Source: a virus
Lineage: Duplodnaviria > Heunggongvirae > Uroviricota > Caudoviricetes
Virus record (IMG/VR): IMGVR_UViG_3300028895_001083
DNA length: 64,000 bases
Strand: one strand, 5' to 3'
The translations under genes were made by a program, and so were the position numbers. Numbering within the stretch: position 1 is the first letter of the stretch; each line of letters opens with the position of its first letter. Under the pieces are notes generated by a model. It worked only from the letters and a program-made list of their open reading frames with translations, searched no databases and was not told the origin of the DNA. Positions 680 to 52,094 of this stretch are shown here, piece after piece.

Positions 680-753
680 CGCGGAGTGGTGCAGAGGCCT
701 AGCACGCGAGCCTCATAAGCTCGAAGTCGCGGGTTCGAATCCCGCCTCCGCAA
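680..753 (+). tRNA. tRNA-Met (anticodon CAT)
   Basis: Full cloverleaf: D-stem GTGC/GCAC, anticodon stem CGAGC/GCTCG with loop CTCATAA, T-arm GCGGG-TTCGAAT-CCCGC. Position 1:72 is a C:A mismatch. Confidence 0.75.
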
Positions 754-2583: not shown

Positions 2584-2599
2584 TTATTCACGTCAATAA
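2584..2599 (+). promoter_or_regulatory. Palindrome-family site 1 (TTATTCacgtCAATAA, one mismatch)
   Basis: Lies 3 nt upstream of the SD of gene 2612. Confidence 0.45.
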
Positions 2600-17559: not shown

Positions 17560-19683
17560 ATGAACAAGAAAGCGGCTGCCGCCAGAATCGCTGAACTGTC
17601 AGCGGACGTGGATCGGCACAACATGTTGTACTATTGCTATGGTGAACCAGCGATCCCGGATAGGGTGTTCGACGAGCTCCTCAAGGAACTGGTTGCACTA
17701 GAGCAGGAATTCCCGGATCTGGCGCTGCCAGATAGCCCGACCCAACGTGTGGGCGGCGCTCCTGTTGAGGGCCTCGAGTCCATGGAGCACCCGTCGCTCA
17801 TGTTTTCTATCGACAACTGCTTCGACCTCGATGAGGTCAAGAAGTTTCATCAGCGTGTGGTGAAGAAGCTCGGCCACGAGCCGCTCTGGACGCCCGAATG
17901 GAAGATTGACGGTTGCGCTGTCAATCTGATCTATGAGGACGGCGTACTCACCCATGCCATAACCCGCGGCGACGGTGCAGTCGGCGACGACATCACGCAC
18001 GCTGCCAAGGCAATGCGCGGCGTCCCTCTCAAGCTGGACCGTCTCTACGACGAGGAAGGCAATGTGATGGGGAATCCCAAGCCGTTGCCGAAGCTCTTGG
18101 AGATCCGTGGCGAAGCGTTCATCACGCACGATGACTTCACGCAGGTCAACTGTGCGCGCAACAACGCTGGTGAGGAGACGTTCGCCAACTCCCGCAACGC
18201 CACGTCCGGCGCTATCCGTAGCGTCGATCCGGCCGACTGTCACGAGCGGCGTGTACGTTTTATGGCGCACGGCATCGGCAAGTGTGAGTACGAAGGCGAC
18301 GTCGATATCGAGTCGTACTTCGAGACGCTGTTTGCCTTTCATCTTTGCGGGATGCCGATCACAGATCACTATGGCCTGCCCGCCCCGATGGATAAGGCGC
18401 TGAAGACCGTCGCAGAGATGGTTGCCATGCTGCCAGAACTGAGCATTCCGGTCGACGGGATCGTCCTGAAGCTGGACAAGTTCAGCGATCGTGAAGCCAT
18501 GGGCCAAGAGTCCAAGAAGCACGTGAGCTGGGCGCTGGCCTACAAGTGGGAGAAGTACGAGGCCGTAACCGAGGTCGAGCGCTTCGACGTACAGGTAGGC
18601 AAGCAGGGCACGCTGACGCCGGTGGTTTACTGCAAACCGGTGGAGATCGCTGAGACGATGGTCGGCAAGGCGTCGCTGCACAACTGGCACGAAGTCTTGC
18701 GCCTGGGCATCGCCCACGGTGACTCGATCGTCATGGAAAAGGCCGGCAAGATCATTCCGCACGTCGTACGTGTGGTCAAGGAGAAGCGCACCGGACCGGT
18801 CGCGCCGTTCCTGCCGCCCGCTACCTGCCCGTCCTGCGGCAGCGACGCCATCGAGGATGGTCCGTTCCTGCGCTGCTCAGGTGATTCGTGCCCCGCACAG
18901 ATCGCCGCCCTGCTCCGATCGGCCGCTGACCGGTCCCGCCTAGATATAGATGGTTTGGGGGAGACCCTAGCCACCCAATTGGCGGAGGCAGAGCTGGTTG
19001 AGGACCTCTCGGACCTCTTCACGCTTGAGCATCGCAGAGACAGCGTTCTGAGGCTTGCACGCATGGGCGAGAAGAAAGCCGACAAGCTCTTCGAAGCCCT
19101 CGCAACGGCGCGTGAGCGGCCTTCCTGGCGATTATTGGCGTCTTTGAACATCAAGCACGTCGGAAGGACCATGTCGGAGGCCATCTGCAAGGCTGCTAGC
19201 GCTGCTGGCGCCGAGCTGAAGGAACCCGCCGACCCCTTCCAAGTGATGGTGTCCTTGTGGTCGATCGACGACTATACCCAGATTGAGGGGGTTGGCGAAG
19301 CCGCCGCTCGATCGATCTGGACGTGGATGCACAGCGAGAAAAACCTGAAGCTGCTGAAGCGCCTCCGGGACTACGGCGTCAACATGGGCGTCAACGACCC
19401 GGTGCCCGAAGTAGACGACGGATCTCCGAAGCCGCTCGCCGGTATGAAGATCTGTGCGACCGGGAAACTGGTCGGGTACTCTCGCGAAAGCATCAAGGAG
19501 ACGATCGTGCAACACGGCGGTACAGTCGCCAGCGCGGTCTCGGCGAAGACCGACATGCTCGTCGCCGGCGAAAAAGCCGGCAGCAAACTGAAGAAGGCCC
19601 AGGACCTGGGCGTTCGTGTCGTCAACGAAGCGGAGTTCAATGACCTCATATCGGTCGAGCAGCAAGAATCCGCCAGTAAGTAA
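17560..19683 (+). CDS. ligA: NAD-dependent DNA ligase
   Basis: AGGAGG SD. KIDG adenylation lysine motif (EWKIDGCAV), Zn finger CPSCGS...C..C, HhH region and a C-terminal BRCT-like domain. The N-terminus aligns with the LigA Ia domain (YYxxxxPxIxDxEYD). Confidence 0.9.
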   Translation: MNKKAAAARIAELSADVDRHNMLYYCYGEPAIPDRVFDELLKELVALEQEFPDLALPDSPTQRVGGAPVEGLESMEHPSLMFSIDNCFDLDEVKKFHQRVVKKLGHEPLWTPEWKIDGCAVNLIYEDGVLTHAITRGDGAVGDDITHAAKAMRGVPLKLDRLYDEEGNVMGNPKPLPKLLEIRGEAFITHDDFTQVNCARNNAGEETFANSRNATSGAIRSVDPADCHERRVRFMAHGIGKCEYEGDVDIESYFETLFAFHLCGMPITDHYGLPAPMDKALKTVAEMVAMLPELSIPVDGIVLKLDKFSDREAMGQESKKHVSWALAYKWEKYEAVTEVERFDVQVGKQGTLTPVVYCKPVEIAETMVGKASLHNWHEVLRLGIAHGDSIVMEKAGKIIPHVVRVVKEKRTGPVAPFLPPATCPSCGSDAIEDGPFLRCSGDSCPAQIAALLRSAADRSRLDIDGLGETLATQLAEAELVEDLSDLFTLEHRRDSVLRLARMGEKKADKLFEALATARERPSWRLLASLNIKHVGRTMSEAICKAASAAGAELKEPADPFQVMVSLWSIDDYTQIEGVGEAAARSIWTWMHSEKNLKLLKRLRDYGVNMGVNDPVPEVDDGSPKPLAGMKICATGKLVGYSRESIKETIVQHGGTVASAVSAKTDMLVAGEKAGSKLKKAQDLGVRVVNEAEFNDLISVEQQESASK

Positions 19684-27094: not shown

Positions 27095-27144
27095 GGCGTC
27101 AAATATACCGTTCTTTCGGGATCCGGGGAGGACCAATTTTGTTA

Positions 27145-27915
27145 ATGGAAACAAAATGTGCGCATGCGCAGCAGGACTGGGCGACAGCCTTACTGCAGCG
27201 ACACGGCAAACTGATGGAAGTCGAGGAGATGGAGGCCCTCATTAAGAGGGGTAAGGCAGGGGACGACGACGCGCGGAACCGCGGGATTGCTGGTTGCTAC
27301 AGGCTGGCCTTTCAACAGGCCTGGCGCGCAGCGTACAACGATCCCCACTTCTCCGTCGACGATCTCTTCCAGGAGGCCGTGATCGGCCTCATGAAGGCAG
27401 TCGAGCGCTGGCGACCAGAAACGGGCAACCGATTCGTAACCGCTGCTTGGTTCTCGATCCATGCCGCAATCTCATGGTACAAAAAGTGCCATAGGCGCCT
27501 CGTATACTACCCGCCCCGCTGGGACGAAAAGGGTGTCAAGCGGCCGGACTGGACTAAAGACTGTCCGGAGCTGTTTGCAGACTACGTGTCGTTGCATAAA
27601 CGCGTGGGCACGGGCAATAGGCGAAATCCCGGGATATTCGTGTACGAGATGATTGAAGACGAGACGCTGCGCGACTTCGTTGCCGACGTCGAGAGCGAGG
27701 ACCAAGCCGATATGGTCTACGAGGCGTTCGAGAAGTTGACGGAGCGTGAAGTCGACATACTGCGGCGTCGCTATCTCGGCGACAAGCTTTGGGAGATCGG
27801 TAAAGTTTACGGAATCACCCGCGAACGTGTTCGGCAGTTGATCATCAAAGCCGAAAATATCATCCACAATCACGTCTTGAAAGAGCAAATCGATGGAGAC
27901 GCTGGTACTGCTTAA
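27145..27915 (+). CDS. Sigma-70 family sigma factor (phage-encoded)
   Basis: Region 2-like FQEAVIGLMKAVERW...FVTAAWFSIHAAISWY. Region 4 HTH EVDILRRRYLGDKLWEIGKVYGITRERVRQLIIKAE. Confidence 0.75.
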   Translation: METKCAHAQQDWATALLQRHGKLMEVEEMEALIKRGKAGDDDARNRGIAGCYRLAFQQAWRAAYNDPHFSVDDLFQEAVIGLMKAVERWRPETGNRFVTAAWFSIHAAISWYKKCHRRLVYYPPRWDEKGVKRPDWTKDCPELFADYVSLHKRVGTGNRRNPGIFVYEMIEDETLRDFVADVESEDQADMVYEAFEKLTEREVDILRRRYLGDKLWEIGKVYGITRERVRQLIIKAENIIHNHVLKEQIDGDAGTA

Positions 27916-30171: not shown

Positions 30172-30187
30172 TTATTCACGTGAATAA
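30172..30187 (+). promoter_or_regulatory. Palindrome-family site 3 (TTATTCacgtGAATAA)
   Basis: Perfect copy inside the structured 30.0-30.25 kb hub, 70 nt upstream of gene 30257. Confidence 0.55.
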
Positions 30188-35164: not shown

Positions 35165-36676
35165 ATGACAAATTCGACGGAAGAGCTGGCCTCTGACGAT
35201 TACGTCGTCGTCATTGGTCCCGTCATTGTCGATCGCTACTTCGTGGGCAAACCCAGACGACTTGACCGTACGGCGCCGGTGCCTCTAATCGGCGTCACGG
35301 GACAGTTCTGGGCGCCCGGTGGCGGCGGCAATGCCGCAAACTGCTTGGCCCATCTGGCCCTCCCAACGACGTTCGTCGGCATGGTCGGAGACGACGACGC
35401 CGGCGAAGAGTATCTCAAGGCACCGATGCCTCCCAACCTGCAGCTGAAGGTTGGCAAATACGCTAACTACAGCACCCCCGTAAAAACCCGCGTCTATGCC
35501 AACAATCGCCTTGTAGCACGGTTTGACGCGGACGATCCTTACACAGGGTCGTTCGAGTCTACGACTGCGTCCTTATTTTTTAGCGCTGTGGCAGAGAAGC
35601 CGCCTTTGGCGATACTTATCAGCGACTACAACAAGGGGGTGTGCACGCCCGACATCATCGGGTCCGTGCTGCTCTACGGCGAGGATCACAACGTCCCCGT
35701 GATCGTGGACCCTGATCCGGCGCACACAGAGAGCTATCAGGGCGCTACGCTACTCACGCCGAACGCCGACGAGGCAATGCGGATGGCAGCGGCCTGCGGG
35801 TATGCAGATCGCGCAACCGATCCGGTCGAAGCAGCTGACTTCCTGGCCAACAAGTTCGATTGTGACGTCCTCGTCACGCTCGGCAGCCACGGAATGGTGC
35901 TGGTTCCGCCCCACGGGCAGGAACGGTTCCCGCTGCAAGCGCTGCCCGCCGCTGCGATCGATACGTGCGGTTGCGGAGATGCTGTGGCGTCGGCGATGAC
36001 CTACGGGATTGCCACCGGAATGAACGCACGCACGGCTACGCGCTTTGCAAACGTGTCCGGTTCGCTATGCTGCGAGATCATTGGTGCTATGCCCATCCCG
36101 CTGCACCGCCTCAACCAACGCGTGACGCTGTCGCTCGGGCTCGATCGAAAGGTCGTGACCCTCGACGAGCTGCGTCTCCTGCGGCAATCCGTCGCCGTCG
36201 CCGGCGAAATCTTCGGGGTTGCCAACGGCGTGTTCGACGGCGTCCACGACGGGCACACCTCGCTGCTACGGCAGGCCAGGGAGCATTGTGACTTCCTGGC
36301 GGTGCTCGTGAACACTGACGAATCGGCGGAGCGCATCAAGCGCCGACCGCAACACAGTCAGATAGCCCGTTCGCTCAGCCTGGCGGCGCATCCGTTGGTG
36401 GATGCGGTGCTGCTGTTCGACGGCGATAACGCAGTACCAGAGTATCAGGCGTTGCAGCCCGATATCATGGTAAAAGGGCCGGACTACAAGGATAGGGAAG
36501 ACCTGCTACCGGAAGCTGCGGTGCTGCCTGAATGGGGCGGCGAGCTGCGGTTGGCCGAGCTAGAGGTCGACGTCAGTAGTACCCAACTGCGGGAAGAAGA
36601 TGAGGCCCTCAAAGAGAGCACTGCGCCAGGAGAGACTGAAGACAGCGCTGGAGGAGCTGGAGACGCTGCGGACTGA
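35165..36676 (+). CDS. Bifunctional sugar kinase / nucleotidyltransferase (HldE/RfaE-like)
   Basis: N-terminal ribokinase/pfkB motifs GGGGNAANCLAHLA and DTCGCGDAVASA. C-terminal cytidylyl/adenylyl-transferase motif GVFDGVHDGH (the (H/T)xGH family). Confidence 0.7.
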   Translation: MTNSTEELASDDYVVVIGPVIVDRYFVGKPRRLDRTAPVPLIGVTGQFWAPGGGGNAANCLAHLALPTTFVGMVGDDDAGEEYLKAPMPPNLQLKVGKYANYSTPVKTRVYANNRLVARFDADDPYTGSFESTTASLFFSAVAEKPPLAILISDYNKGVCTPDIIGSVLLYGEDHNVPVIVDPDPAHTESYQGATLLTPNADEAMRMAAACGYADRATDPVEAADFLANKFDCDVLVTLGSHGMVLVPPHGQERFPLQALPAAAIDTCGCGDAVASAMTYGIATGMNARTATRFANVSGSLCCEIIGAMPIPLHRLNQRVTLSLGLDRKVVTLDELRLLRQSVAVAGEIFGVANGVFDGVHDGHTSLLRQAREHCDFLAVLVNTDESAERIKRRPQHSQIARSLSLAAHPLVDAVLLFDGDNAVPEYQALQPDIMVKGPDYKDREDLLPEAAVLPEWGGELRLAELEVDVSSTQLREEDEALKESTAPGETEDSAGGAGDAAD

Positions 36677-36905
36677 ACTCGCCTTCGACGAGATCACCGT
36701 AACGCTCAGCGACTTCCAACGACACTGGCAGTTCAAATATGGCGACAAGCATTTGGCGGACTGGTGGCCAGCTTCTGCGAAGGGACAGCTCACAGGGTCA
36801 CAAGACTCCGTCGACTGTGTGAGCACGTCTCAAGCGCAGAAGCTGGCCATCGCCGCTAAGAAGAAGCTGTTTACCGAGATTCGGCAGGCGCTTCAGCAGA
36901 GGTGA
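36600..36905 (+). CDS. Hypothetical protein
   Basis: High GC3 in this frame where it overlaps the low-GC3 tail of the HldE-like ORF. Confidence 0.5.
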   Translation: MRPSKRALRQERLKTALEELETLRTELAFDEITVTLSDFQRHWQFKYGDKHLADWWPASAKGQLTGSQDSVDCVSTSQAQKLAIAAKKKLFTEIRQALQQR

Positions 36906-37044
36906 GCTCCTCTCGCAGGATTTGTACATCCGGCGGGGCGTCGACACCGAGGCGGATCCGATCACGACCAGTGCGGATGACCGTGACGGTGATGTCGTCG
37001 CCAATCTTGATCTGCTCACCTTCTTTGCGGGACAGGACCAACAT
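36871..37044 (-). CDS. csrA: Carbon storage regulator CsrA/RsmA homolog
   Basis: 57 aa, MLVLSRKEGEQIKIGDDITVTVIRTGRDRIRLGVDAPPDVQILREEL. This nearly co-linear alignment to CsrA ([48 protein letters not shown]) was done by eye. AAGGAGG SD. Confidence 0.8.
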   Translation of the reverse strand: MLVLSRKEGEQIKIGDDITVTVIRTGRDRIRLGVDAPPDVQILREELTSAEAPAESR

Positions 37045-37113
37045 GGTAGACCTCCTTGTGCTTGCAGTAACAATACGCCCAGTTTATCACCTTCGGACCC
37101 CCGGAGCAACCAA

Positions 37114-37488
37114 ATGGGACAATTTCACTTCATGCAGATGTACAACGACGCCGCGGCGCGCGACTGCGCTGCCATGCCGCAGGCGTTGCTGATGATCGGA
37201 GCCGTTACGGCGGCTGAAAAGGACGCACGCGGGATGGGATATTGGGATGACCTGACCATCGACGTGCTGTTCGAGAAGGCTCGCAGGCTTGTTGACCTGA
37301 GGGACTGTTTTTCGGAACGACTAAAGCTTATGCTATTGGATGGTGAAATCCTCGTCTTAGTCCGGGACCCTGTAGATGGACGCGTCCATCGGCTCCGAGA
37401 CACCGACGTGATCGATTTCGATGACCCGATAGTAGGCCCGGAGCAGTTCTTTACATTGGCTGAAAAGCTGATCGAGCACTCGGCCTGA
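37114..37488 (+). CDS. Hypothetical protein
   Basis: ATG with a GGAG SD. The upstream part of the long ORF is antisense to csrA and was discarded. Confidence 0.5.
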   Translation: MGQFHFMQMYNDAAARDCAAMPQALLMIGAVTAAEKDARGMGYWDDLTIDVLFEKARRLVDLRDCFSERLKLMLLDGEILVLVRDPVDGRVHRLRDTDVIDFDDPIVGPEQFFTLAEKLIEHSA

Positions 37489-37491
37489 ATC

Positions 37492-37507
37492 TTATTCAGG
37501 AGAATAA
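37492..37507 (+). promoter_or_regulatory. Palindrome-family site 4 (TTATTCaggaGAATAA)
   Basis: Perfect copy ending 1 nt before the ATG of the SbcD-like gene (37509). Confidence 0.55.
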
Positions 37508-37508
37508 A

Positions 37509-38726
37509 ATGGCAGCGAGACCGCTAGCACTGGTATCGGCTGACTGGCATCTTCGTAAGTACGACCGCGTGTGGTACCGACGTGACACGCTGCGCGGCGA
37601 CGCCGCGTGGGGCGTCCGACAGGTATGCGACATTGCGGCCGAGCAAATGCCTGATTGTCTGATCCTGCTGGGCGACCTGTTCGACCAGCGGCTGCAGCAG
37701 TCAGATTCTCTGATGCTCATGCGACGAGCTATGGCTGATTTCCAGGAGAACAATATCCAAGTGCAGTTCATTCAAGGACAGCACGAGCGGTCTTCACCGA
37801 CGCTGATGAAGTCGATCCACAGCTGGTCACAGCATATCGACGAGCGGATGGTGGAGTTGGACAACGGCAACCTGCTCATGTACGGCCTGGATTATCGCAA
37901 TCCGGTCGAGGTTGAGGAGGCGCTGCGTGCCGTGCCTACAAACGCTGACATTTTGGCGACTCATCAGGTTTGGAAGGATTACCTTGGCGAGGAGCGCGGC
38001 GATGCCTGGTTCCACTGGGCGCCGACGCAGTTCATTGCCACGGGAGATTTCCACAAAGCGAAATTCGAGACGCGTGGGACGCAGAAGATCCTGTCACCGG
38101 GACCGCTCTGCATGCAGAACATCGGCGAGGATCACGAGAAGTTCGTGTTCATGCTGAACTCTGATCTCACCGTCACGCCATACAAATTGCGATCGCGCGG
38201 CTACTATGAGGCACGCCTGTACGAGGAAGCGCAACTCGAGCAATTCCTCGACGAGTGGGACGCCTCCCCGGCGAAGATCCCGCAGGTTGGCGTGCCGCCC
38301 GCCGTCGCAACAAACATCATCCGCGTTTGGTACCGTTCGGATATTCCCGACGCCAAGCCGCGGTTGGAAGGTAGGATCGGCTCATCGGCCCACCTATTTA
38401 CAACGATGATCCCTGTCGAAGACCAGGCACAGACGGTCGACGCCGAGCGGCGTGTCCAGGCTGTACTTGGTGCGGGCATGGTCGGATGCATCAACGAGTT
38501 TTACGGAGATGACCCTCGCGCATGCGCAGATGCCGTGCGGCTCTACCGTAGCAAAGACATCCAAACCGAGCTACTTTCAATCTTCAAGGAGCAAGTTAGT
38601 GTCCCTAACGGTCACCGAGAAGGAACATTTCAAGACGAGACTCCAGGAGATCCACGATCGAGCGACTGCACAACTGACGGCCGACGCGCCAGCGTGGGAG
38701 CCACGGCTCCGCAACAAGGCAGCTAA
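37509..38726 (+). CDS. sbcD: SbcD/Mre11-family nuclease
   Basis: Phosphoesterase motifs SADWH, LLGDLFD, GQHE and ATHQ. Paired with the downstream SbcC-like ATPase. Confidence 0.8.
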   Translation: MAARPLALVSADWHLRKYDRVWYRRDTLRGDAAWGVRQVCDIAAEQMPDCLILLGDLFDQRLQQSDSLMLMRRAMADFQENNIQVQFIQGQHERSSPTLMKSIHSWSQHIDERMVELDNGNLLMYGLDYRNPVEVEEALRAVPTNADILATHQVWKDYLGEERGDAWFHWAPTQFIATGDFHKAKFETRGTQKILSPGPLCMQNIGEDHEKFVFMLNSDLTVTPYKLRSRGYYEARLYEEAQLEQFLDEWDASPAKIPQVGVPPAVATNIIRVWYRSDIPDAKPRLEGRIGSSAHLFTTMIPVEDQAQTVDAERRVQAVLGAGMVGCINEFYGDDPRACADAVRLYRSKDIQTELLSIFKEQVSVPNGHREGTFQDETPGDPRSSDCTTDGRRASVGATAPQQGS

Positions 38727-39668: not shown

Positions 39669-40003
39669 GTGCGGACCTCACGTTGAAGTACGCAACCACT
39701 TTCACGAGTCTTGCTAACGCTATGCGACTTGTGAAGGCGTCGCTGCTGGCCCTCAAGGATGCCAGCGATAATCTCAACGACTGGTGGGACGACCAAGACC
39801 TCGAAGGTGTGGAGGACGAGGACGAGTTCCTCGCCAAGAAAGCCGCCGAGACTTTTGGCATCCCGGAGAGCTTCGCGCTCGCCCTTGTCGACTTTTCGTT
39901 GCTTCCAGAGATCAAAGGTATGAAGGCTGCGCCGCCTGACGCCATGACGCTCGCCGAAGCGCTATCACTACTGCACCCCCTAACAAGTGAGAGCTGGCCA
40001 TGA
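39665..40003 (+). CDS. Hypothetical acidic protein
   Basis: ATGA coupling on both sides. Confidence 0.55.
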   Translation: MSADLTLKYATTFTSLANAMRLVKASLLALKDASDNLNDWWDDQDLEGVEDEDEFLAKKAAETFGIPESFALALVDFSLLPEIKGMKAAPPDAMTLAEALSLLHPLTSESWP

Positions 40004-42144
40004 TAATCCAGAAGGTCAACCTTCGACATTTCTGCCAGCACATCCAGGAAGAATTCACGCTGTCGCCTGGGCTCAACATGATCGTTGGGCCCAACGGCAG
40101 CGGGAAGACCAACCTCCTGCGTGCTACGCAGTTTCTCGTCACGGGGGACTCGGGCGGCAATCGCCCCAAGGCGGACGACGTCTACCAAGGCGTGTTCGGC
40201 TCAAACGAGGAGTCCTTTGTGAGCGGCCAGCTGTTGCACGAGGGAACAGTCATTACCCTCAAGCGTGCGCTCCAGCCGGCGACAGCCAATCTCATGGAGA
40301 TCGGCGACGAGACCTGGACGTCTGTCAATGCCATCAACAGCGAGCTGTTCCGACGGCTGGGCACGACGAAGAAGCAGATCCACGACTACATCTTCGTCCG
40401 CCAACGCGGCATCGACGAGATGTTCGACCAAAAGCCCGCCGAGCGGGCCGCATCGCTGGCATCCCTCTTCGGCCTCGACAAGGCTGAGAAGATCTGGAAG
40501 CAGACCGGCGACTTCCTCAAAACGATCGAGGTGCCGACCACGACGTTGAGTCTGGATGAGCTGAACGCGCAGCACGCTGACATACAGGTGCAGATCACCG
40601 AGCTCAACAACCAGTTCGCGGCGCTCCATCTACCACTCGACGGCGACGCCAAGCTTGCGGAACATCAAACCGTGATCGACGGCTGTAAGCAGCGTGAGAT
40701 GCTGATGAACAAGCAGGCGGTCCTGGAGAAGACGCGTGAAGAGACGCTCGCTTCTGCCAAGGCTGCGATGTCGTACCGGCAACAGTTGCAGACAGAGGCT
40801 ACGCTGCTGGAGAACGCTATGGCCGCCGTCAGCGTCGAAGCCAATGACGCGCACGGCGAGCTGGCACGTTGGGACGCGTACGATAAGTCGCTGACAGCGC
40901 GCGAGCAGTTCGTCGCCGACGAGCTGGCTTTTCGTACCAAGTGGCCGAGTCATCCGAAGCAGCCGCGCGAGGTCGCACCGCTCGGTGAGGACCTTGTCGA
41001 GGCGTTGAAGGGCTATCGTGCAGTGCGTAACAGTCTCACCAACAGCATCAAAGGCCTGGAGGATGAGGACGACAACTGTCCGACGTGTGGCCAGCCACTG
41101 CCCGAGGCCGACCAGGCCACGGCACGCTTGCAGGAGCTGCACGATCAGCTGCGTGAGTGCGAGATGGAACGACAGCCGCTCGAGGAACAGCAACGTGCGT
41201 ACGATCAGTACTGCGCCGAGCTGTTACACTGGCAACGGCAGTGCGAGGAGATGGATAAAGAGCAGGAAGCCTTGGAGCAACGCAAAGAGGCCCTGCAGCT
41301 GGTTGAGCAACCACGCAGCGCGCGTGACGCTCTCCAGGCCGTCATCGACGAGCACACCGAGTTCTGTGCGGCGCATAAGGAGATCCAGGAGAAGCTTAAG
41401 GTGGCGCTTGCTACTGAGGCCAGCCTCGACGCGAAGCTGGACCAGCAAAACCAGACGCACTTTGAGCAGACCGCGGAGATCGACTCGCTGCATAAGTACA
41501 CGGCGGAGGCCGCTACCATTGCTCGCCAGGAGTTGCAGCAGCTGAAAGGCCGGCTGGCGCAGGCCACCGAGCTCGACAAGCAGATCGCTGTGCTGCGCGC
41601 CACGCTCGACGGCGTGGAGTCGAAGATCGACGACGTGCGGCGTGTGGAGCAAAAGAGCATCCGCACTCGGCAGGCTGTCGACCACCTGCAGCGTATCCGA
41701 GACATGTACCACCGCAACGAGGCCCCGCGCTTGGTGTCCTACACCTATATCGAGAACATGCTCGACGAGGTGAACCGAACACTGGAGCTATTCGAGGCGC
41801 CTTTCCGGGTGGAGATGGACGAGGATCTGGGCTTCATCTGCCGGTTTACCGATGGTATTCGGGTGCAGCCCGACAGTCGGCTCTCGGTCGGCGAGCGGAT
41901 CGTTCTTGCTATGGCGTTCCGCATTACAGTAAACTCTACGTTCGCAGGTCAGGTGGGTGTCCTCATTCTGGACGAGCCCACTGCCGGCCTTGACGAACAC
42001 AACCTCGGCTGTCTACCGCACGCCCTGGAACGTCTGCAGGTACTATCTGCAGAGCGTGGACTCCAGGTTTTGTTCGTCACGCACGAACCGCGGATTCAGC
42101 ACCTGTTTGACAACGTCATTACGTTACGAGCCCATGAAAACTGA
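40000..42144 (+). CDS. sbcC: SbcC/Rad50-family ATPase
   Basis: N-terminal Walker A GPNGSGKTN, long coiled coil with a central CPTCGQPL zinc hook, and a C-terminal signature/Walker B region (VLILDEPTAGLD). Confidence 0.85.
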   Translation: MIIQKVNLRHFCQHIQEEFTLSPGLNMIVGPNGSGKTNLLRATQFLVTGDSGGNRPKADDVYQGVFGSNEESFVSGQLLHEGTVITLKRALQPATANLMEIGDETWTSVNAINSELFRRLGTTKKQIHDYIFVRQRGIDEMFDQKPAERAASLASLFGLDKAEKIWKQTGDFLKTIEVPTTTLSLDELNAQHADIQVQITELNNQFAALHLPLDGDAKLAEHQTVIDGCKQREMLMNKQAVLEKTREETLASAKAAMSYRQQLQTEATLLENAMAAVSVEANDAHGELARWDAYDKSLTAREQFVADELAFRTKWPSHPKQPREVAPLGEDLVEALKGYRAVRNSLTNSIKGLEDEDDNCPTCGQPLPEADQATARLQELHDQLRECEMERQPLEEQQRAYDQYCAELLHWQRQCEEMDKEQEALEQRKEALQLVEQPRSARDALQAVIDEHTEFCAAHKEIQEKLKVALATEASLDAKLDQQNQTHFEQTAEIDSLHKYTAEAATIARQELQQLKGRLAQATELDKQIAVLRATLDGVESKIDDVRRVEQKSIRTRQAVDHLQRIRDMYHRNEAPRLVSYTYIENMLDEVNRTLELFEAPFRVEMDEDLGFICRFTDGIRVQPDSRLSVGERIVLAMAFRITVNSTFAGQVGVLILDEPTAGLDEHNLGCLPHALERLQVLSAERGLQVLFVTHEPRIQHLFDNVITLRAHEN

Positions 42145-45450: not shown

Positions 45451-46134
45451 ATGCAGCGGCCGCCGCCGGAAGAATACGAGGCGCTGCCGGAACGCAACAT
45501 GTTCTCCACCAACCCCGCTGGTCACATGGCCAGGCGGCTCTACCAAGCGTACAAACGCGAGACATACTGGCGTGCTATGCGCGTGGAGAATGTCAAGCTA
45601 CCGAACTTCAACACGCGCGAGCTGGGTGACTGCTGGCCGCGGCTGGCACGCCTCATCATGCAGTCGGGCTGGTCGAATGCCGAGCGGTTCATCCACGTGC
45701 AGTTCAAGTACGGGCCGAGCAGCGAGAAGCTGCAGACGCTCGAGCACGGACCGCTGGTGAACATGCTCACGTCCGAAAAGGCGATGAAGCAGTACACGCA
45801 GTACATCGTCCGTGCCGACAGCATGCTGGTACAGCAGTTGGAGTCTGCCAAACTCGAGTTCAAGTGTGCTAGCGCTGAATGCGCGGGACAGTACCCGCAC
45901 CTGCCCACCAGGGAGCGCTGGGAACTTATTCTCATGAATAAAATGTTGGATCTCCCGCCGCTGTTCCGGTACTGCGTGGCCTCTTCCGAGGGGCTCGCCT
46001 GTGCCAAGGACTTGTGGGAAGAAGGCTTTCAGCAGTTCATGTCCGATCCGATCGGGTATACGCGTACGTGGGAAGCGACCATTCCTGCCGAAATGAAAGC
46101 CGAAGCCGAAGAACTACTGCAGCTCAAACTCTAG
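45451..46134 (+). CDS. Hypothetical protein (contains intragenic palindrome site 5)
   Basis: First ATG after the helicase stop. Confidence 0.45.
   Translation: MQRPPPEEYEALPERNMFSTNPAGHMARRLYQAYKRETYWRAMRVENVKLPNFNTRELGDCWPRLARLIMQSGWSNAERFIHVQFKYGPSSEKLQTLEHGPLVNMLTSEKAMKQYTQYIVRADSMLVQQLESAKLEFKCASAECAGQYPHLPTRERWELILMNKMLDLPPLFRYCVASSEGLACAKDLWEEGFQQFMSDPIGYTRTWEATIPAEMKAEAEELLQLKL
45926..45941 (+). promoter_or_regulatory. Palindrome-family site 5 (TTATTCtcatGAATAA), intragenic
   Basis: Perfect copy inside ORF 45451-46134. It embeds in-frame ATG AAT AAA ATG and lies about 200 nt upstream of the DnaB-like helicase gene. Confidence 0.45.
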
Positions 46135-47801: not shown

Positions 47802-48919
47802 AATCGGTTACCGGCGTGACCCTGGGCAACGATGCCGCAGGCGCACACGTCATCAACCCGTTCCTTTACGAGAAGCTCCAGAAACGCTTCGGCGATGTTA
47901 TCATCGCCAAGCAAGGCGAGCCGATCTACGGGAACTACACGTATGACGGCAGCGGCTTCAAGTACGACACCCTCGGCGGAGAGTATTATCGCGTCTGCTG
48001 CCCGTTCTGCGAGCAGAAGCGCGCGGTGGATACCAAACACCGACTGTGGATCAGCCATCGCTGGGGCGTCGGCCTCGACGAGGATGACCCGCAGACCAAA
48101 CTGAAGCCGAACGATCGGTTTTGGTGGGCGTGGGTGTGCTACAACGAGCATTGCGAAGAGAACCCGGCGAACACCAAACAGTTGCAGACCTGGGTCTACG
48201 GCGGTATCGGCCGGGAGCTACACGCGCCCGCCGTCAAGCTGCAGTTCCACACTGTGCCGATGGCGTCGCTCGGACTCGTCGACTGGCCTGGCCGCTGCTT
48301 GCGGGTGGACCAGCTGCGACCGGAGCACCACGCATGGCAGTACCTGGCGACCCGCGGCTTTGACCCCGCGGCAGTTGGCCCACGCTACGGCGTGACGTAC
48401 TGCGAGAGTGGTTCGGCGCGCTTCCCGATGGCGTTCGGACGGTTGGTGATCCCGATCGTGATGAACGGCGATATGGTTGGCTGGCAAGCCCGCCCGCCAT
48501 ATGAAGCAGACTGGAAGACCACCGCCAAGTACTACAACTGTCCCGGCATCAACCGGCGACTCATGTTGTACGGCTTCGACATAGCCAGGGCGTATCCGTA
48601 CTGCGTCATAACCGAGGGCGTCACCGACGTGTGGGCTGTCGGCCAGGGGGCGATCTCGCTCCTCGGCAAGCACATATCCCCGCAGCAGGCAGAGCTGATC
48701 GCGCAGAACTGGAAAGCAGCCGTGATCGCTCTCGACCCTGACGCAATGGACCGAGTCGAGCGTATCCAGCAGCAGCTGGGCAGTATGCCGACGGTGGTCG
48801 TGAAACTCCCAGACGGTTGCGATCCAGCTGACATGGATCAGGATCGCTTCTGGGATCTTGTATGGCAAAGTTCCGTAAACCAGAATGTTGATCTGTTAGG
48901 ACTACAGAATGATTCCTGA
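47798..48919 (+). CDS. DnaG-like DNA primase
   Basis: Zn-binding CCPFC...CYNEHC. TOPRIM acidic motifs VITEGVTD and ALDPD. ATGA coupling to the helicase. Confidence 0.8.
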   Translation: MKSVTGVTLGNDAAGAHVINPFLYEKLQKRFGDVIIAKQGEPIYGNYTYDGSGFKYDTLGGEYYRVCCPFCEQKRAVDTKHRLWISHRWGVGLDEDDPQTKLKPNDRFWWAWVCYNEHCEENPANTKQLQTWVYGGIGRELHAPAVKLQFHTVPMASLGLVDWPGRCLRVDQLRPEHHAWQYLATRGFDPAAVGPRYGVTYCESGSARFPMAFGRLVIPIVMNGDMVGWQARPPYEADWKTTAKYYNCPGINRRLMLYGFDIARAYPYCVITEGVTDVWAVGQGAISLLGKHISPQQAELIAQNWKAAVIALDPDAMDRVERIQQQLGSMPTVVVKLPDGCDPADMDQDRFWDLVWQSSVNQNVDLLGLQNDS

Positions 48920-51900
48920 ACTAGGTCTCGACGACCTTCAAGCGATTTTCCGCAACGACGAGGACAACGAGTACAGTCGGCGCTTTCCGATGTACCCCCT
49001 CGTGTCTCCCGGCATGCCGCCGCCTGGCCCGGACTTCATCGCCCACGCGAAAGCGCTCGGCGATGCTAACCCCTACGTCGTAGAGGGTACGGGCAAGAAC
49101 AAGCGCGGCATCGAAGCCGGATTCAAGCTGCAGTGCCTGTATCTGAAGGCGCTGTACTCGAACGAACTCCACATGCCCATCAAGGTGAAAGGGCGTACCG
49201 AGACGGTGCGCATCCTGCCCGGGCATCTCTGGGGCGATCATGCCGAAGGTCCCAAGTACCTCGAGAACGAGGAGCTGCGGGGACGACCGCGTGTGATGGT
49301 TGTTGGAAAGCACCCTGGCCTCGAAGAGATAGGCGAGGGACGCAACTTCGTCGGCCCGTCTGGCCGGCAACTGAAGGACACGTTGACCGCGCTCGGTCTG
49401 AGTGATGCCGAGCTCAATGATTGGTACGTGTGTAACCTGGTGCGTTGGATGAACGTCAATCCGCAGAGCGGCGCGTTGCCGCAGGCGTGGATCAAGGACT
49501 GTCTTCCGCTGCTGCACCAGGAGATCCGGCTGTACCGGCCTGACTATATCCTGTGCCTCGGGGCCGAAGCGACCAAAGCGGTCATCCCGGGCAACACAGT
49601 GAATACCATGGTGGGCCGTTACGTCGAGCGCACTGAGATGCTGCAAGAGTATGGCGAGCCTGATGACCTGCATACCTCCAAGGTGATGGCCATCACGCAT
49701 CCGGCGGCTGTGCTGCGTACCACGGAGTTGTACCCGGCGTTCGAAGCCACCCTGCGGAACTTCATCCAGTTGATCCGTGGCGAGGAGTTTACGAGCGCAG
49801 AGAACGACAACATCACGATCCAATACATGTACAAGGAAAGGGAGTTGAAGGAGTACGTTGACTACGTCCTTTCTCGCCCTGGGTTGAAAAAGATAGCAGT
49901 TGACGGTGAGTGGCACGGCCAGCATCCCGGCGAGCCGGGGTCGTACCTCCGTACGATACAGGTAAGCCACACCGGCAAGTATGCCGCCGTCATCGTCCTG
50001 CGAGGGCAGGGCGGTGGTACTGCGTTTCGACCAGGCATTTCGCGCGCGATCGATCACCTTAACCGGCTGCTCGATCGTGACGACGTCCAGATTGGCGGCA
50101 GCTTCTTCGCTGCTGACCTTCCGTGGCTTGAACACAACGGCCTGAACATCGCCCACCGCTTCAAGGTACCGCCCACGGTCGACGAGATCCGCGGCGGTAA
50201 CTACGCAGGCGGCTTCGACATCGGCTTGGCCCACCACGCCTACAACGAGACCGGTGACTTCAAGCTGGAAGTCATGGCCTCTCGGTTGTGCGGTGCGCCT
50301 CGCTGGGACGTTGCGCTGGGCGAGTGGAAGAAGGCGTACCTCAAGGAGCGGAAGATGAAGGACGAGGAGCTCGAAGGGTACGGAGAGTGCCCCGACGAGG
50401 TCCTACTGCCCTACGGCGGCAAAGATGCTGCCTACACACGTCAGCTGATGGACAGGCATTGCAACCTGCTGAACGGCGATCGCTACGGCAACGACTGCTG
50501 GATCCCGTTCCATCTGTCCATGATGGCATTCCCGGCCTTCAACGAGATGGGCACGATCGGCGTCAAGATCGACCCCGAACGCATTGATGAGCTCACCGAC
50601 CAATTCATCGAAGTGAGCGCCCAGAAGCTGAAGAAGCTTCAGGAGGACATCAACTGGCCGGCGTTCAACCCTCGAAGTTCACAGCAGTGTGTGGAATTCC
50701 TGTTCGGCGAGCGCTACTCTACGCGCCGTGACAAGGACACAGGAGAGCGGCTCAGCGTGCGTCCAGCGGGCGCCATGACGCTCAACCTGGAGCCCATCAA
50801 GTCCACTGGCAAAGGTAAGCCGTGGGGCTGGGTGATGTCCAGAGGCGAACAGGAGAAGTACACGCCGAGTACAGATAAAGAGACATGTGGCATTTTGGGT
50901 TTACAACACCCAATGGCGTTACAGCTACGCGACGTGAGGCTGATCGACCAAGTGTTGAAGTCCGTATTCCGTCCGCCTAAGTACAAGGCAAAATCGACGG
51001 AGATCGAACTCGACAGCAATGGCCGACGGATCTACGGCGGTGGCATCGCTAAGTACATATGCCATGACCAGCGTGTGAGAAGTTCGTTCCAACAAGTGAA
51101 GGAAACTGGACGTGCGTCAAGTGCGAGGCCGCCATTACAGAATATCAGTAAGCGTCGCGAAGACGATTACTCGAGAATCCTGGGTGACCAATACCGCTGG
51201 CCAATCCGGTCATTTATCGTCAGCAACACCGACCCCGGCTATGCCGAACCTACCGTCCTTGTAGAGTCAGACTATAAGGGCGCGGAACTTATGGGGATGG
51301 CGGTGATGGCTCGCGATGCGCAAATGTTGGATCACTGCTTACGCGCAAACCTGCCCGATGGCGATCCGCAGCAATATGATATCCACTCAAATATCGCTGT
51401 GACTTCCTTTCAACTTGACTGCGAGGCTAGCAAAGCTGGACTCGCATCGATCAAGCAGAAGGGCAAGCGCGTTGCTGCGAAAAACATCATCTTCGGCGTA
51501 GGCTATGGACGCACCGCGGAGGCGTGCGCCAGGCAGTGCCAGGAAGAAAATGCTCCTATCACCGTTGCGGAAGCGCAAAGCATTATCGACACGATCTTCG
51601 AGCTCTATCCGGGTATTCCAGCGTTGCAAGAGGCACTCCGTGCCCGCGTCGCTAACCCGGGATGGCTTAGAAATTGTTTCGGTAGGTATCGTCGATTCAT
51701 CAGCACGTCTGATCGAGCGGCGATGGGCGAATTGGAGCGCCAGGCACTGAATTTTCCGTTTCAGAGTATGGTAGCCGATGCCGTTTCGACGGCGCTATAT
51801 TGGCTACACAACCATCCTCGTAAAGAGGAACTTGGGTACAAGATTGTCCTCCAGATCCACGATGCGATCGTGCTGGAGGTCCCATGTCGCAGCTTGGACG

Positions 51901-52094
51901 TGGTACACAACGAGATCCTGCCAGAGTGCATGGTCGACAAAGTGTCCTTCCAGGCATGTGACTTAGACGGAGCTCCGTATGCGGACAGTCCGATCTACCG
52001 ATTTGGGTTGGATCAGGACGTGTTCACGCGATGGGGCTTGAAGTTGACAGAAGAGGAGTGTGAGCGGTTGGGAATTAGTCCCGATTATATCTAG
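48909..52094 (+). CDS. Family A DNA polymerase with N-terminal UDG-like (family 4-type) domain
   Basis: Pol motif A DYKGAELM, B KRVAAKNIIFGVGYG, C QIHDAIVLEV. N-terminal GKHPGLEEIGEGRNFVGPSGRQL and ITHPA resemble the UDG family-4 motifs GE(A/G)PG...FVG.AG and HPS. Confidence 0.9.
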   Translation: MIPELGLDDLQAIFRNDEDNEYSRRFPMYPLVSPGMPPPGPDFIAHAKALGDANPYVVEGTGKNKRGIEAGFKLQCLYLKALYSNELHMPIKVKGRTETVRILPGHLWGDHAEGPKYLENEELRGRPRVMVVGKHPGLEEIGEGRNFVGPSGRQLKDTLTALGLSDAELNDWYVCNLVRWMNVNPQSGALPQAWIKDCLPLLHQEIRLYRPDYILCLGAEATKAVIPGNTVNTMVGRYVERTEMLQEYGEPDDLHTSKVMAITHPAAVLRTTELYPAFEATLRNFIQLIRGEEFTSAENDNITIQYMYKERELKEYVDYVLSRPGLKKIAVDGEWHGQHPGEPGSYLRTIQVSHTGKYAAVIVLRGQGGGTAFRPGISRAIDHLNRLLDRDDVQIGGSFFAADLPWLEHNGLNIAHRFKVPPTVDEIRGGNYAGGFDIGLAHHAYNETGDFKLEVMASRLCGAPRWDVALGEWKKAYLKERKMKDEELEGYGECPDEVLLPYGGKDAAYTRQLMDRHCNLLNGDRYGNDCWIPFHLSMMAFPAFNEMGTIGVKIDPERIDELTDQFIEVSAQKLKKLQEDINWPAFNPRSSQQCVEFLFGERYSTRRDKDTGERLSVRPAGAMTLNLEPIKSTGKGKPWGWVMSRGEQEKYTPSTDKETCGILGLQHPMALQLRDVRLIDQVLKSVFRPPKYKAKSTEIELDSNGRRIYGGGIAKYICHDQRVRSSFQQVKETGRASSARPPLQNISKRREDDYSRILGDQYRWPIRSFIVSNTDPGYAEPTVLVESDYKGAELMGMAVMARDAQMLDHCLRANLPDGDPQQYDIHSNIAVTSFQLDCEASKAGLASIKQKGKRVAAKNIIFGVGYGRTAEACARQCQEENAPITVAEAQSIIDTIFELYPGIPALQEALRARVANPGWLRNCFGRYRRFISTSDRAAMGELERQALNFPFQSMVADAVSTALYWLHNHPRKEELGYKIVLQIHDAIVLEVPCRSLDVVHNEILPECMVDKVSFQACDLDGAPYADSPIYRFGLDQDVFTRWGLKLTEEECERLGISPDYI

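What the first reader, a model, noticed from the sequence alone, without database searches (positions are those of the whole stretch)
36871..37044. Phage-encoded CsrA/RsmA homolog on the opposite strand
A 57-aa minus-strand ORF with a strong SD is a near full-length CsrA-like protein; the alignment to canonical CsrA was done by eye. CsrA is a global post-transcriptional regulator that binds GGA motifs in 5' leaders. A phage copy could reprogram host translation or carbon-storage circuits, or regulate phage mRNAs. It converges on the HldE-like gene and its neighbour. The ORF track hid it inside a longer antisense frame.
Basis: partly seen in the sequence, partly recalled or inferred. Interest (0 to 1): 0.7.

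Follow-up and report, generated by a model that had tools for sequence, protein, structure and literature searches.

The report
Phage-borne CsrA RNA-binding regulator gene
An uncultured phage, probably of Planctomycetota, carries a real, intact copy of the bacterial translation regulator CsrA as an optional add-on gene; CsrA genes are already documented in phages, so this is a solid but fairly ordinary new example.

Summary
Window 36871-37044 (-) is a 57-aa ORF behind an AAGGAGG Shine-Dalgarno. It matches Pfam CsrA at E=1.6e-22 (79.6 bits, cutoff 27). It keeps the RNA-binding residues L2, L4, R6 and R44, and its model superposes on solved CsrA/RsmA/RsmE structures.

The window is a phage (terminase, polymerase, helicases, ligase, own sigma factor). 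The nearest CsrA and LigA relatives are almost all Planctomycetota, so that is the likely host phylum.

csrA is the only minus-strand gene in a plus-strand replication/recombination block. It lies between a conserved 101-aa gene and a 124-aa gene that precedes an SbcCD-like operon. The same placement recurs in 13 of 34 related metagenomic phage loci, including very distant ones, yet csrA is missing from some close relatives. It is therefore old, position-stable and dispensable.

No sponge RNA, FliW or copy of the conserved planctomycete partner gene was found. No convincing target set emerged.

Phage and plasmid CsrA homologues are already catalogued (PHROG 9500, 82 GenBank phage records, a 2020 survey), and one has been knocked down.

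Verdict: new member of a known kind. It most likely acts as a host-mimicking GGA-binding translational repressor. Moderate-low interest.

The parts
36871..37044 (-). csrA coding sequence, 57 aa including the stop codon at 36871-36873
   Evidence: ORF list. Pfam CsrA E=1.6e-22. PHROG 9500. Public gene calls. Fold matches CsrA structures.
37051..37057 (-). Shine-Dalgarno AAGGAGG of csrA, 6 nt before the ATG. It contains a GGA within ACAAGGAGG, which resembles the CsrA SELEX core, so autoregulation is possible.
   Evidence: Sequence. The ACARGGANG motif occurs 7 times in the window against 3.4 expected, which is weak. The leader shows no stable structure, z=+2.
37045..37113 (.). 69-nt divergent intergenic region between csrA and the 124-aa gene. 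It is the presumed site of both promoters.
   Evidence: Gene map. No sigma-70-like promoter was detected, so the promoters are inferred only.
36600..36905 (+). Conserved 101-aa gene of unknown function ('orf101'), convergent with csrA and overlapping its 3' end by 35 nt. The public gene caller did not call it.
   Evidence: 56-66% identity in relatives. Codon-position substitution rates of 0.31/0.22/0.54 indicate coding. Only weak family hits.
36765..36849 (.). Strong nested hairpin (15-bp perfect outer stem) starting 22 nt after the csrA stop, inside orf101. Possibly a 3'-end, terminator or stabiliser element for the convergent transcripts.
   Evidence: dG -62.8 kcal/mol, z -5.2. Conserved in L002 with a compensatory C:G to G:C change. 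Similar geometry also occurs in a csrA-less relative, so it is not csrA-specific.
37114..37488 (+). 124-aa gene of unknown function, divergent from csrA and first gene of the downstream plus-strand block
   Evidence: Public gene call. 38-48% identity in relatives. No family hit.
37509..38726 (+). SbcD/Mre11-like phosphoesterase gene, with SbcC-like 40000-42144 downstream. csrA is positionally linked to this module in relatives.
   Evidence: PHROG 100 and Metallophos hits. SMC_N/AAA_23 and PHROG 77 for SbcC. Positional linkage.
37492..37507 (+). TTATTC-AGGA-GAATAA palindrome/hairpin that presents the sbcD Shine-Dalgarno GGA in a loop. It is a candidate CsrA site, but it is also one of five copies of a palindromic motif.
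35165..36676 (+). HldE-like bifunctional gene (PfkB kinase plus cytidylyltransferase-like domains), upstream convergent neighbour
   Evidence: Pfam and PHROG 7878. Syntenic in relatives.

Best explanation
The gene encodes a functional CsrA-family RNA-binding protein that the phage carries as an optional, separately transcribed accessory gene.

By analogy with characterised CsrA/RsmA/RsmE, it should form a homodimer with two RNA-binding surfaces. These surfaces are built from strand beta1 (L2, L4, R6) of one subunit and beta5 (V40, I42, R44) of the other. They should bind GGA motifs, preferably in hairpin loops that overlap Shine-Dalgarno sequences, and thereby block ribosome loading.

The protein is a close mimic (50-67% identity) of a CsrA clade specific to Planctomycetota, the probable host phylum. 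It lacks the C-terminal helix that protein antagonists such as FliW use. The phage carries neither a sponge RNA nor the small partner gene that almost always precedes this csrA type in planctomycete genomes.

Its most likely role is therefore to add extra CsrA activity during infection that may escape host control, shifting translation of host mRNAs (and possibly its own leader) in the phage's favour.

Shown: family membership, conserved RNA-binding residues, fold, phage context, positional conservation, and dispensability.

Inferred: dimer formation, GGA binding, timing of expression, and host rather than phage targets.
For: Family, residues and fold:
- Pfam CsrA 79.6 bits; PHROG 9500.
- 45-51% identity over residues 1-48 to solved RsmE, RsmA and CsrA.
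- M1 L2 V3 L4 S5 R6 A36 P37 R44 are invariant across 36 homologues. L4 and R44 are the residues shown to be critical for RNA binding (PMC7652899).
- AF2 model pLDDT 80.7. The top 15 Foldseek PDB hits are all CsrA-family, rmsd 1.5-1.7 A.

Host mimicry:
- Nearly all of the 80 best genomic relatives are Planctomycetota, one MAG labelled Alphaproteobacteria excepted.
- Every named relative of the phage LigA that identifies a phylum is also Planctomycetota.

Accessory, moron-like status:
- csrA is the single minus-strand gene in a plus-strand block.
- It is present at the same place in 13 of 34 related loci but absent from close relatives L121, L126, L130, L131 and L133.

No antagonist on board:
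- Rfam finds only tRNAs.
- The tail TSAEAPAESR has no helix and no N55 equivalent.
- The conserved 107-aa planctomycete partner, found in 73 of 80 loci, is absent from the window and from 30 viral csrA loci.

Precedents:
- Plasmid RsmQ takes over host translational control (PMC9928087).
- An ICE-borne CsrA-like protein alters host growth states.
- Knock-down of the PTXU04 csrA homologue gives smaller plaques and is scored 'semi-fit'.
Against: - No RNA-binding, dimerisation or expression data exist for this protein.
- The host is inferred from protein similarity only.
- The score falls just below NCBI's equivalog cut-off for canonical CsrA (67.1 vs 70.1). His43 is replaced by Leu, so specificity may differ.
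- The fixed position next to the sbcCD-like operon across very divergent phages could instead point to a phage-internal role.
- Most phage genes themselves have GGA-containing Shine-Dalgarno sequences, so phage mRNAs are equally plausible targets.
Confidence: 0.55

Rival explanations
1. The phage CsrA is mainly a regulator of the phage's own mRNAs. It would be a RegA-like temporal translational repressor that shuts down or times early and middle genes, such as the adjacent sbcCD-like operon or the phage sigma factor, by binding GGA at their ribosome-binding sites.
For: - csrA sits on the opposite strand, 40-650 nt upstream of the sbcD-like gene, in 13 of 34 related loci. This holds even where SbcD is only about 30% identical.
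- The sbcD Shine-Dalgarno is displayed as an AGGA loop of a 6-bp hairpin (37492-37507), and the stem covaries in relatives.
- The sigma-factor start codon lies in an AAUGGA loop of an 8-bp hairpin, with three more GGA upstream.
- Most phage genes use GGA-containing Shine-Dalgarno sequences.
Against: - csrA is missing from close relatives that keep the same operon and the same hairpin (L121, L126).
- GGA counts in sbcD leaders are equal in csrA+ and csrA- relatives, 1.29 vs 1.30.
- GGA-in-loop hairpins at start sites are not significantly enriched: 8 of 83 against 4.4 +/- 2.1 in shuffles.
- The sbcD hairpin is one of five copies of a TTATTC-N4-GAATAA palindrome. The other four lack GGA, which fits a DNA operator or promoter better.
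Confidence: 0.25
2. The phage protein works as a decoy or poison rather than as a direct repressor. It would titrate the host's CsrA antagonist (an sRNA sponge or the conserved 107-aa partner protein), or form mixed dimers with host CsrA paralogues, thereby deregulating the host's own Csr network.
For: - 50-67% identity to host-clade CsrA. CsrA is an intertwined dimer (established knowledge; PMC7652899).
- The planctomycete clade is nearly always paired with a small partner gene that the phage did not take.
- The same idea has been proposed for an ICE-borne CsrA-like protein.
Against: - The partner's function is unknown. It shows no similarity to FliW or to any solved structure.
- All RNA-binding residues are conserved in the phage copies. 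A pure protein decoy would not need them.
Confidence: 0.12
3. The ORF is not a functional gene. It would be a chance antisense ORF, a decaying pseudogene, or bacterial DNA misassembled into the contig.
For: - It is short (57 aa) and overlaps longer mechanical ORFs.
- No promoter was detected.
Against: - HMM E=1.6e-22 and a strong Shine-Dalgarno.
- An identical protein occurs on at least 24 independent contigs.
- Syntenic, intact copies with conserved key residues occur in 11 other distinct phage sequences.
- It is flanked on both sides by phage genes.
Confidence: 0.02

Closest known systems
CsrA / RsmA / RsmE of Gammaproteobacteria (E. coli CsrA 1Y00; P. fluorescens RsmE 2JPP; P. aeruginosa RsmA 1VPZ, 7YR6)
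   Same: Same Pfam family. 45-51% identity over residues 1-48. Same predicted fold. L2, L4, R6, V40, R44 and E46 are conserved, and R7K, V42I and I47L are conservative changes.
   Different: No C-terminal alpha-helix: the tail is Pro/Ala-rich and low-confidence. Leu replaces His43. No Csr/Rsm sponge RNA was detected nearby. The score is just under the NCBI equivalog cut-off.
Planctomycetota chromosomal CsrA clade (MLVLSRKE...LR[DE]EL type; e.g. Pirellulales, Thermoguttaceae, Planctomycetaceae MAGs)
   Same: These are the closest sequences, at 50-67% identity. They share the Leu43 signature and proline-interrupted tails.
   Different: The bacterial copies follow a conserved, uncharacterised ~107-aa gene in 73 of 80 loci. 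The phage copy has no such partner and has one of the shortest tails.
Phage-encoded CsrA homologues already catalogued (PHROG 9500; RsmM-type in P. aeruginosa phages phi297, F116, JBD90 etc.; Vibrio phages; E. coli phage PTXU04 gp28)
   Same: A CsrA homologue carried by a tailed phage as a small non-structural gene. The PHROG 9500 match is E=1.2e-15. In PTXU04 the gene is beneficial but not essential, which matches the presence/absence pattern seen here.
   Different: At most 53% identity to any GenBank phage copy. No nucleotide similarity to any deposited phage. Different probable host phylum. Here the gene is a lone opposite-strand unit tied to an sbcCD-like module.
Plasmid and ICE CsrA homologues (RsmQ of pQBR103; CsrT and Lpp0168 of Legionella ICEs; pMBA19a CsrA)
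   Same: A mobile element carries a copy of the host's global translational regulator. The proposed mode is cross-talk with host mRNAs and sponge RNAs.
   Different: Those act during long-term carriage. This one sits in a phage with no integrase seen in the 64-kb window and presumably acts during infection.
B. subtilis / Campylobacter CsrA-FliW partner-switch systems
   Same: N-terminus MLVLSRK, as in Bacillota-type CsrA. The host phylum is non-gammaproteobacterial, where protein antagonists are the rule.
   Different: FliW binding needs the C-terminal helix and N55, and both are absent. No FliW was annotated among the public Pfam annotations of the window's called genes, which cover about 680-62100. 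The planctomycete partner is not detectably FliW.
Phage T4 RegA translational repressor (functional analogue only; from my own knowledge)
   Same: A small phage protein that represses translation by binding ribosome-binding sites of several mRNAs, including its own.
   Different: Unrelated fold and sequence. RegA is a phage invention, whereas this gene is a captured host regulator.

Membership tests
CsrA/RsmA family (Pfam PF02599) | Significant match to the family HMM above the curated threshold over most of the domain | tested here: met
   79.6 bits against gathering score 27, E=1.6e-22, profile positions 1-49 of 53.
CsrA/RsmA family (Pfam PF02599) | Critical RNA-binding residues in beta1 and beta5 (L2, L4, R6/R7; V40, V42, R44, I47 in E. 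coli numbering) | tested here: met
   L2, L4, R6, K7, V40, I42, R44 and L47 are present. L2, L4, R6 and R44 are invariant in 36 homologues. Their importance is documented in PMC7652899.
CsrA/RsmA family (Pfam PF02599) | CsrA fold: small beta-strand protein superposable on solved CsrA structures | tested here: met
   AF2 pLDDT 80.7. The top 15 Foldseek PDB hits are all CsrA/RsmA/RsmE, TM about 0.67, rmsd 1.5-1.7 A over 44 residues.
CsrA/RsmA family (Pfam PF02599) | C-terminal alpha-helix following beta5 | tested here: not met
   DSSP shows no helix and pLDDT is 53 for the last residues. The tail TSAEAPAESR contains proline. The same holds for the planctomycete clade and for the phage relatives. 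The helix is not required for RNA binding in the literature consulted.
CsrA/RsmA family (Pfam PF02599) | Intertwined homodimer with two RNA-binding surfaces | not testable with these tools
   Only single-chain prediction is available. In the monomer model beta1 and beta5 are not assigned as strands, as expected if they pair across subunits.
CsrA/RsmA family (Pfam PF02599) | Sequence-specific binding of GGA-containing RNA and translational control | not testable with these tools
   This needs EMSA, RIP or reporter assays. Candidate sites are only suggestive.
Canonical carbon storage regulator CsrA, equivalog level (NCBIfam TIGR00202 / NF002469) | Score above the curated equivalog cut-off | tested here: not met
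   TIGR00202 67.1 bits against 70.1. NF002469 63.6 against 73. It is a family member but is not certified as functionally equivalent to E. coli CsrA.
Csr/Rsm system with sRNA antagonist (CsrB/RsmZ type) | Multi-GGA sponge RNA encoded with or near the regulator | tested here: not met
   Rfam at gathering thresholds finds only 3 tRNAs in the 64 kb. The permissive scan of 36000-38000 finds nothing relevant. Unknown sponge families cannot be excluded.
CsrA-FliW partner-switch system | FliW gene present, and CsrA with extended C-terminal helix carrying the conserved Asn55 | tested here: not met
   No FliW Pfam annotation on any publicly called gene across about 680-62100 of the window. No helix and no Asn at the equivalent position.
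Phage-encoded CsrA-like regulators (PHROG 9500) | CsrA homologue located inside a bona fide phage genome and matching the phage family profile | tested here: met
   PHROG 9500 E=1.2e-15. Flanked by terminase, ligase, SbcCD-like, helicase and polymerase genes. 30 IMG/VR contigs and 82 GenBank phages carry relatives.

The most novel reading that the evidence does not exclude
A whole lineage of uncultured phages, probably infecting Planctomycetota, has kept for a very long time a 'stripped' copy of a planctomycete-specific CsrA paralogue at one fixed locus. SbcD identity across this lineage falls to about 30%. In bacteria this paralogue is almost always co-encoded with an uncharacterised 107-aa partner, and the phage copy comes without it. 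If the partner is a new kind of CsrA antagonist, the phage protein would be an antagonist-blind mimic that overrides a previously unrecognised CsrA-partner switch in Planctomycetota. That would reveal both a new regulatory module and a phage counter-strategy.
Probability: 0.15. Interest if true: 0.6.

Novelty: new member of a known kind. Interest (0 to 1): 0.3.

Why it matters
- It extends the catalogue of mobile-element CsrA copies to phages of a phylum, probably Planctomycetota, whose viruses and post-transcriptional regulation are almost unstudied.
- Within one phage lineage the gene is ancient, fixed in position and yet dispensable. That is the signature of a fitness-enhancing host-manipulation gene rather than a core regulator.
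- It gives concrete RNAs to test: csrA's own leader, the sbcD Shine-Dalgarno hairpin, and the sigma-factor start-codon hairpin.
- As a by-product it points to an uncharacterised csrA-linked partner gene in Planctomycetota.
- It does not change how CsrA or phage takeover is understood.

Tried and rejected
1. Nucleotide search of 15 kb around the gene against 50,697 GenBank phages found no match.
2. The sigma-70 promoter and intrinsic-terminator scan around csrA found no promoter and no relevant terminator.
3. The csrA leader fold is less stable than shuffles (z=+2), so there is no structured operator.
4. The SELEX-like motif ACARGGANG occurs 7 times against 3.4 expected. This is not convincing.
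5. Rfam found no Csr/Rsm sponge RNA in the window.
6. I looked for a universal neighbour of csrA across 30 IMG/VR viral loci. There is none, and in most of them csrA is co-oriented with its neighbours.
7. I tested whether phage neighbours orf101 or g124 are homologues of the planctomycete 107-aa partner. They are not: hhalign probability below 1% and the HMM finds nothing.
8. I tested whether that partner is FliW-like. There is no Pfam, NCBIfam or PDB match.
9. I compared GGA content of sbcD leaders in csrA+ and csrA- relatives. There is no difference.
10. Enrichment of GGA-in-loop hairpins at 83 start sites is not significant.
11. I considered the sbcD Shine-Dalgarno hairpin as a dedicated CsrA operator and downgraded it, because it belongs to a five-copy palindrome family and only this copy has GGA.
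12. I considered the 3' hairpin as a csrA-specific terminator and weakened that idea, because similar geometry exists in a csrA-less relative.
13. The first search for relatives with SbcD alone in IMG/VR returned nothing.
14. A single versus multiple origin of csrA in the phage lineage could not be resolved from about 50 aligned residues.

Full report
**1. The observation**

Window 36871-37044 on the minus strand is an ATG-initiated ORF of 57 codons: MLVLSRKEGEQIKIGDDITVTVIRTGRDRIRLGVDAPPDVQILREELTSAEAPAESR. A perfect AAGGAGG Shine-Dalgarno lies at 37051-37057, 6 nt before the start codon. Public gene callers independently call exactly this 57-aa product on at least 24 metagenome contigs. They place the start of the neighbouring plus-strand gene at 37114, not 36922.

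**2. What it is**

- The protein matches Pfam CsrA (PF02599) at E=1.6e-22, 79.6 bits against a gathering score of 27, over profile positions 1-49 of 53.
- It matches PHROG 9500 'CsrA-like regulator' at E=1.2e-15.
- NCBI's equivalog models for canonical CsrA are narrowly missed: TIGR00202 scores 67.1 against 70.1.
- Against solved structures it aligns over residues 1-48 with RsmE (2JPP), RsmA (7YR6, 1VPZ) and E. coli CsrA (1Y00).
- An AlphaFold2 model built on 36 homologues has mean pLDDT 80.7. Its 15 best Foldseek matches in the PDB are all CsrA-family chains, with rmsd 1.5-1.7 A over about 44 residues and 45-51% identity.
- In the alignment M1, L2, V3, L4, S5, R6, A36, P37 and R44 are invariant. 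L4 and R44 are the residues shown experimentally to be critical for RNA binding (review PMC7652899). The other positions of the two functional subdomains are identical or conservatively replaced: K7, V40, I42, L47.
- The one clear departure from the textbook protein is the C-terminus. No helix is predicted, confidence there is low, and the tail TSAEAPAESR contains proline.

**3. The genome around it**

The window is a phage. It carries the following:
- large terminase (10682-12565, minus strand)
- NAD-dependent ligase (17560-19683)
- an exonuclease
- SbcD-like (37509-38726) and SbcC-like (40000-42144) genes
- two helicases
- a family-A DNA polymerase with a fused UDG domain (48909-52094)
- a UvsX-like recombinase
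- a sigma-70-like factor (27145-27915)
- NDK
- three tRNAs

It has no nucleotide similarity to any of 50,697 deposited phages.

Of 82 publicly called genes, almost all are on the plus strand. csrA is a singleton on the minus strand. It converges on an HldE-like gene (35165-36676) and on a 101-aa gene (36600-36905). It diverges, across 69 nt, from a 124-aa gene that precedes the SbcCD-like genes.

The 101-aa ORF was skipped by the public gene caller but is real. It is 56-66% identical in relatives, and its substitutions fall mainly on third codon positions (0.31/0.22/0.54). Its 3' end overlaps the csrA 3' end by 35 nt.

**4. Probable host**

Nearly all of the 80 best genomic relatives of the CsrA, at 50-67% identity, are Planctomycetota; the exception is one MAG labelled Alphaproteobacteria. 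They include Pirellulales, Planctomycetaceae and Thermoguttaceae. They form a recognisable clade, MLVLSRKE...(V/I)LR(D/E)EL, with Leu where E. coli has His43 and with proline-interrupted tails.

Among the named relatives of the phage LigA (42-45% identity), those that identify a phylum are all Planctomycetota. The window is 55-61% G+C, which I recall as typical of Pirellulales genomes (own knowledge, not tested here).

The host assignment is an inference from protein similarity, not a demonstration. CsrA is reported to be especially common in Planctomycetota, and some bacterial genomes carry up to 15 paralogues (PMC13443453).

**5. Distribution in related phages**

A distant relative from the same sample (L002, proteins 30-50% identical) has the same gene order: HldE-like, orf101, csrA on the opposite strand, g124, SbcD, SbcC.

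I then scanned metagenomes with an SbcD alignment, which returned 39 related loci.
- In 13 of the 34 loci with at least 1 kb of upstream sequence (plus one truncated locus), a CsrA gene lies on the strand opposite to sbcD, 40-650 nt upstream of it.
- This includes loci whose SbcD is only about 30% identical to the window's (L136, L141, L152, L155).
- Five closer relatives (L121, L126, L130, L131, L133) lack it. In L126 and L130 the orf101 and g124 homologues are only about 110 nt apart.
- Most of the phage-lineage copies are short (57-62 aa; the ORFs in L129 and L132 are 67 and 86 aa as extracted, counting residues upstream of the conserved N-terminal motif), have Pro-rich tails, and keep L2 and R44; L4 and R6 hold in nearly all (L129 reads MLIISCK).

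The gene is therefore old in this lineage, stable in position, under purifying selection where present, and dispensable. About 50 aligned residues cannot decide between one capture with losses and repeated capture. The positional constancy favours the former.

**6. How it most likely works**

By homology, the protein should dimerise and bind GGA motifs, preferably in hairpin loops overlapping Shine-Dalgarno sequences, blocking ribosome access (mechanism from PMC7652899). Dimerisation and RNA binding could not be tested here.

Three lines favour host mRNAs as the main targets:
- It is a close mimic of a host-clade paralogue with every RNA-binding determinant intact.
- It is an accessory, separately oriented unit rather than a core regulator.
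- There are precedents in other mobile elements. Plasmid RsmQ takes over host translational control (PMC9928087). An ICE-borne CsrA-like protein alters growth states. Knock-down of the csrA homologue of phage PTXU04 reduces plaque size without abolishing infection (PMC11879866).

The phage brings no recognisable antagonist:
- Rfam finds only tRNAs.
- The helix and Asn55 needed for FliW binding are absent (PMC7829508).
- In 73 of 80 planctomycete loci this csrA type is preceded on the same strand by an uncharacterised ~107-aa gene. An HMM of that gene finds nothing in the window or in 30 viral csrA loci.

The phage copy may therefore act outside the host's normal control. This last step is speculation.

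**7. The self-regulation rival**

The persistent adjacency to the sbcCD-like operon invites the idea that CsrA controls it.
- The sbcD Shine-Dalgarno is presented as an AGGA loop on a 6-bp stem (TTATTC-AGGA-GAATAA, 37492-37507).
- In relatives the stem covaries to TTGTTC...GAACAA.
- The sigma-factor start codon sits in an AAUGGA loop of an 8-bp hairpin (27136-27157), with more GGA upstream.

The tests were negative or ambiguous.
- GGA counts in sbcD leaders are the same in csrA+ and csrA- relatives, 1.29 vs 1.30.
- csrA-less relatives keep the hairpin.
- GGA-in-loop hairpins occur at 8 of 83 start sites against 4.4 +/- 2.1 in shuffles.
- The sbcD element is one of five copies of a TTATTC-N4-GAATAA palindrome (0.02 expected). 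Only this copy has GGA at its centre, which fits a DNA operator or promoter family better.

I keep this rival at about 0.25.

**8. Comparison with what is known, and novelty**

csrA genes on phages were surveyed in 2020: 30 of 2,517 phage genomes, mostly Pseudomonas (PMC7366521). A PHROG family exists. 82 GenBank phage records carry a homologue of this protein, at no more than 53% identity. 30 IMG/VR contigs do as well.

This is therefore a new member of a known kind. What is new:
- the probable host phylum
- membership of the helix-less, Leu43 planctomycete clade
- the long-term positional conservation with presence/absence polymorphism in an uncultured phage lineage
- the absence of the partner gene that accompanies this clade in bacteria

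**9. Verdict**

The identification as a phage-encoded CsrA homologue is supported. The function is inferred, not shown. Interest is about 0.3: a specialist would not be surprised, and no long-standing question becomes newly testable. The locus does offer defined RNAs and a defined protein for a first look at phage-driven post-transcriptional control in Planctomycetota.

Noticed in passing
Bacterial loci L032-L111, e.g. L053 4576-4899: In 73 of 80 Planctomycetota loci, the csrA clade closest to the phage gene is preceded on the same strand (gap 20-380 nt) by a conserved, uncharacterised ~107-aa gene with invariant Cys, Trp, Pro and Gly positions. It has no Pfam, NCBIfam or PDB match and is not detectably FliW. 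It could be a new CsrA partner or antagonist.
   Followed up: partly
window 36600-36905 (+): A 101-aa gene that the public gene caller missed is conserved at 45-66% identity across related phages, better than its neighbours HldE-like and g124. Its substitution pattern is that of coding sequence. It overlaps the HldE-like 3' end by 77 nt and the csrA 3' end by 35 nt. It has only a weak PHROG 25911 hit.
   Followed up: partly
window 36765-36849: A very stable nested hairpin (15-bp perfect outer stem, dG -62.8 kcal/mol, z -5.2) lies inside the coding sequence of the 101-aa gene, 22 nt after the csrA stop. It is conserved in L002 with a compensatory C:G to G:C change and a different inner stem. 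Similar geometry occurs in other relatives, including a csrA-less one. Its function is unknown; it may be a bidirectional 3'-end element.
   Followed up: partly
window 2584-2599, 13569-13584, 30172-30187, 37492-37507, 45926-45941: There are five copies of the 16-bp palindrome TTATTC-N4-GAATAA (0.02 expected by chance) in a 58% G+C genome. Three of them share a 21-nt core, AATCTTATTCA.G.GAATAAA, and two abut start codons. This is probably a phage operator or promoter family.
   Followed up: partly
window 27095-27160 and 27145-27915: The phage encodes its own sigma-70-like factor (Sigma70_r2/r4). Its start codon lies in the AAUGGA loop of an 8-bp AU-rich hairpin (27136-27157). The 50-nt divergent intergenic region upstream carries three more GGA.
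   Followed up: partly
window 35165-36676 (+): There is an HldE-like bifunctional gene (PfkB sugar kinase plus cytidylyltransferase-like domain; PHROG 7878 heptose kinase/adenylyltransferase), syntenic in most relatives. It is a possible auxiliary gene for nucleotide-sugar or cell-envelope modification.
   Followed up: no
window 48909-52094 (+): The DNA polymerase A gene carries an N-terminal uracil-DNA-glycosylase-family domain (PF03167 + PF00476) in one 1061-aa product.
   Followed up: no
window 680-753, 2072-2145, 2852-2925: Three tRNA genes (Met-CAT, Glu-TTC, Gln-TTG) are clustered at the left end of the window.
   Followed up: no
whole window; contigs: The same phage sequence occurs on many contigs of 53-80 kb and on one of 220 kb (ERZ27256770 k141_2006669). 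The true genome size and ends are therefore unclear: it could be a larger phage, a concatemer or a prophage context. No integrase was seen among the Pfam-annotated genes of the window.
   Followed up: no
L016 981-1331 and 8001-8177; L041 2431 and 5001: One viral contig (L016) carries two different CsrA homologues about 7 kb apart. One planctomycete contig (L041) carries both a canonical VHRREVY-type and the LREEL-type paralogue.
   Followed up: no
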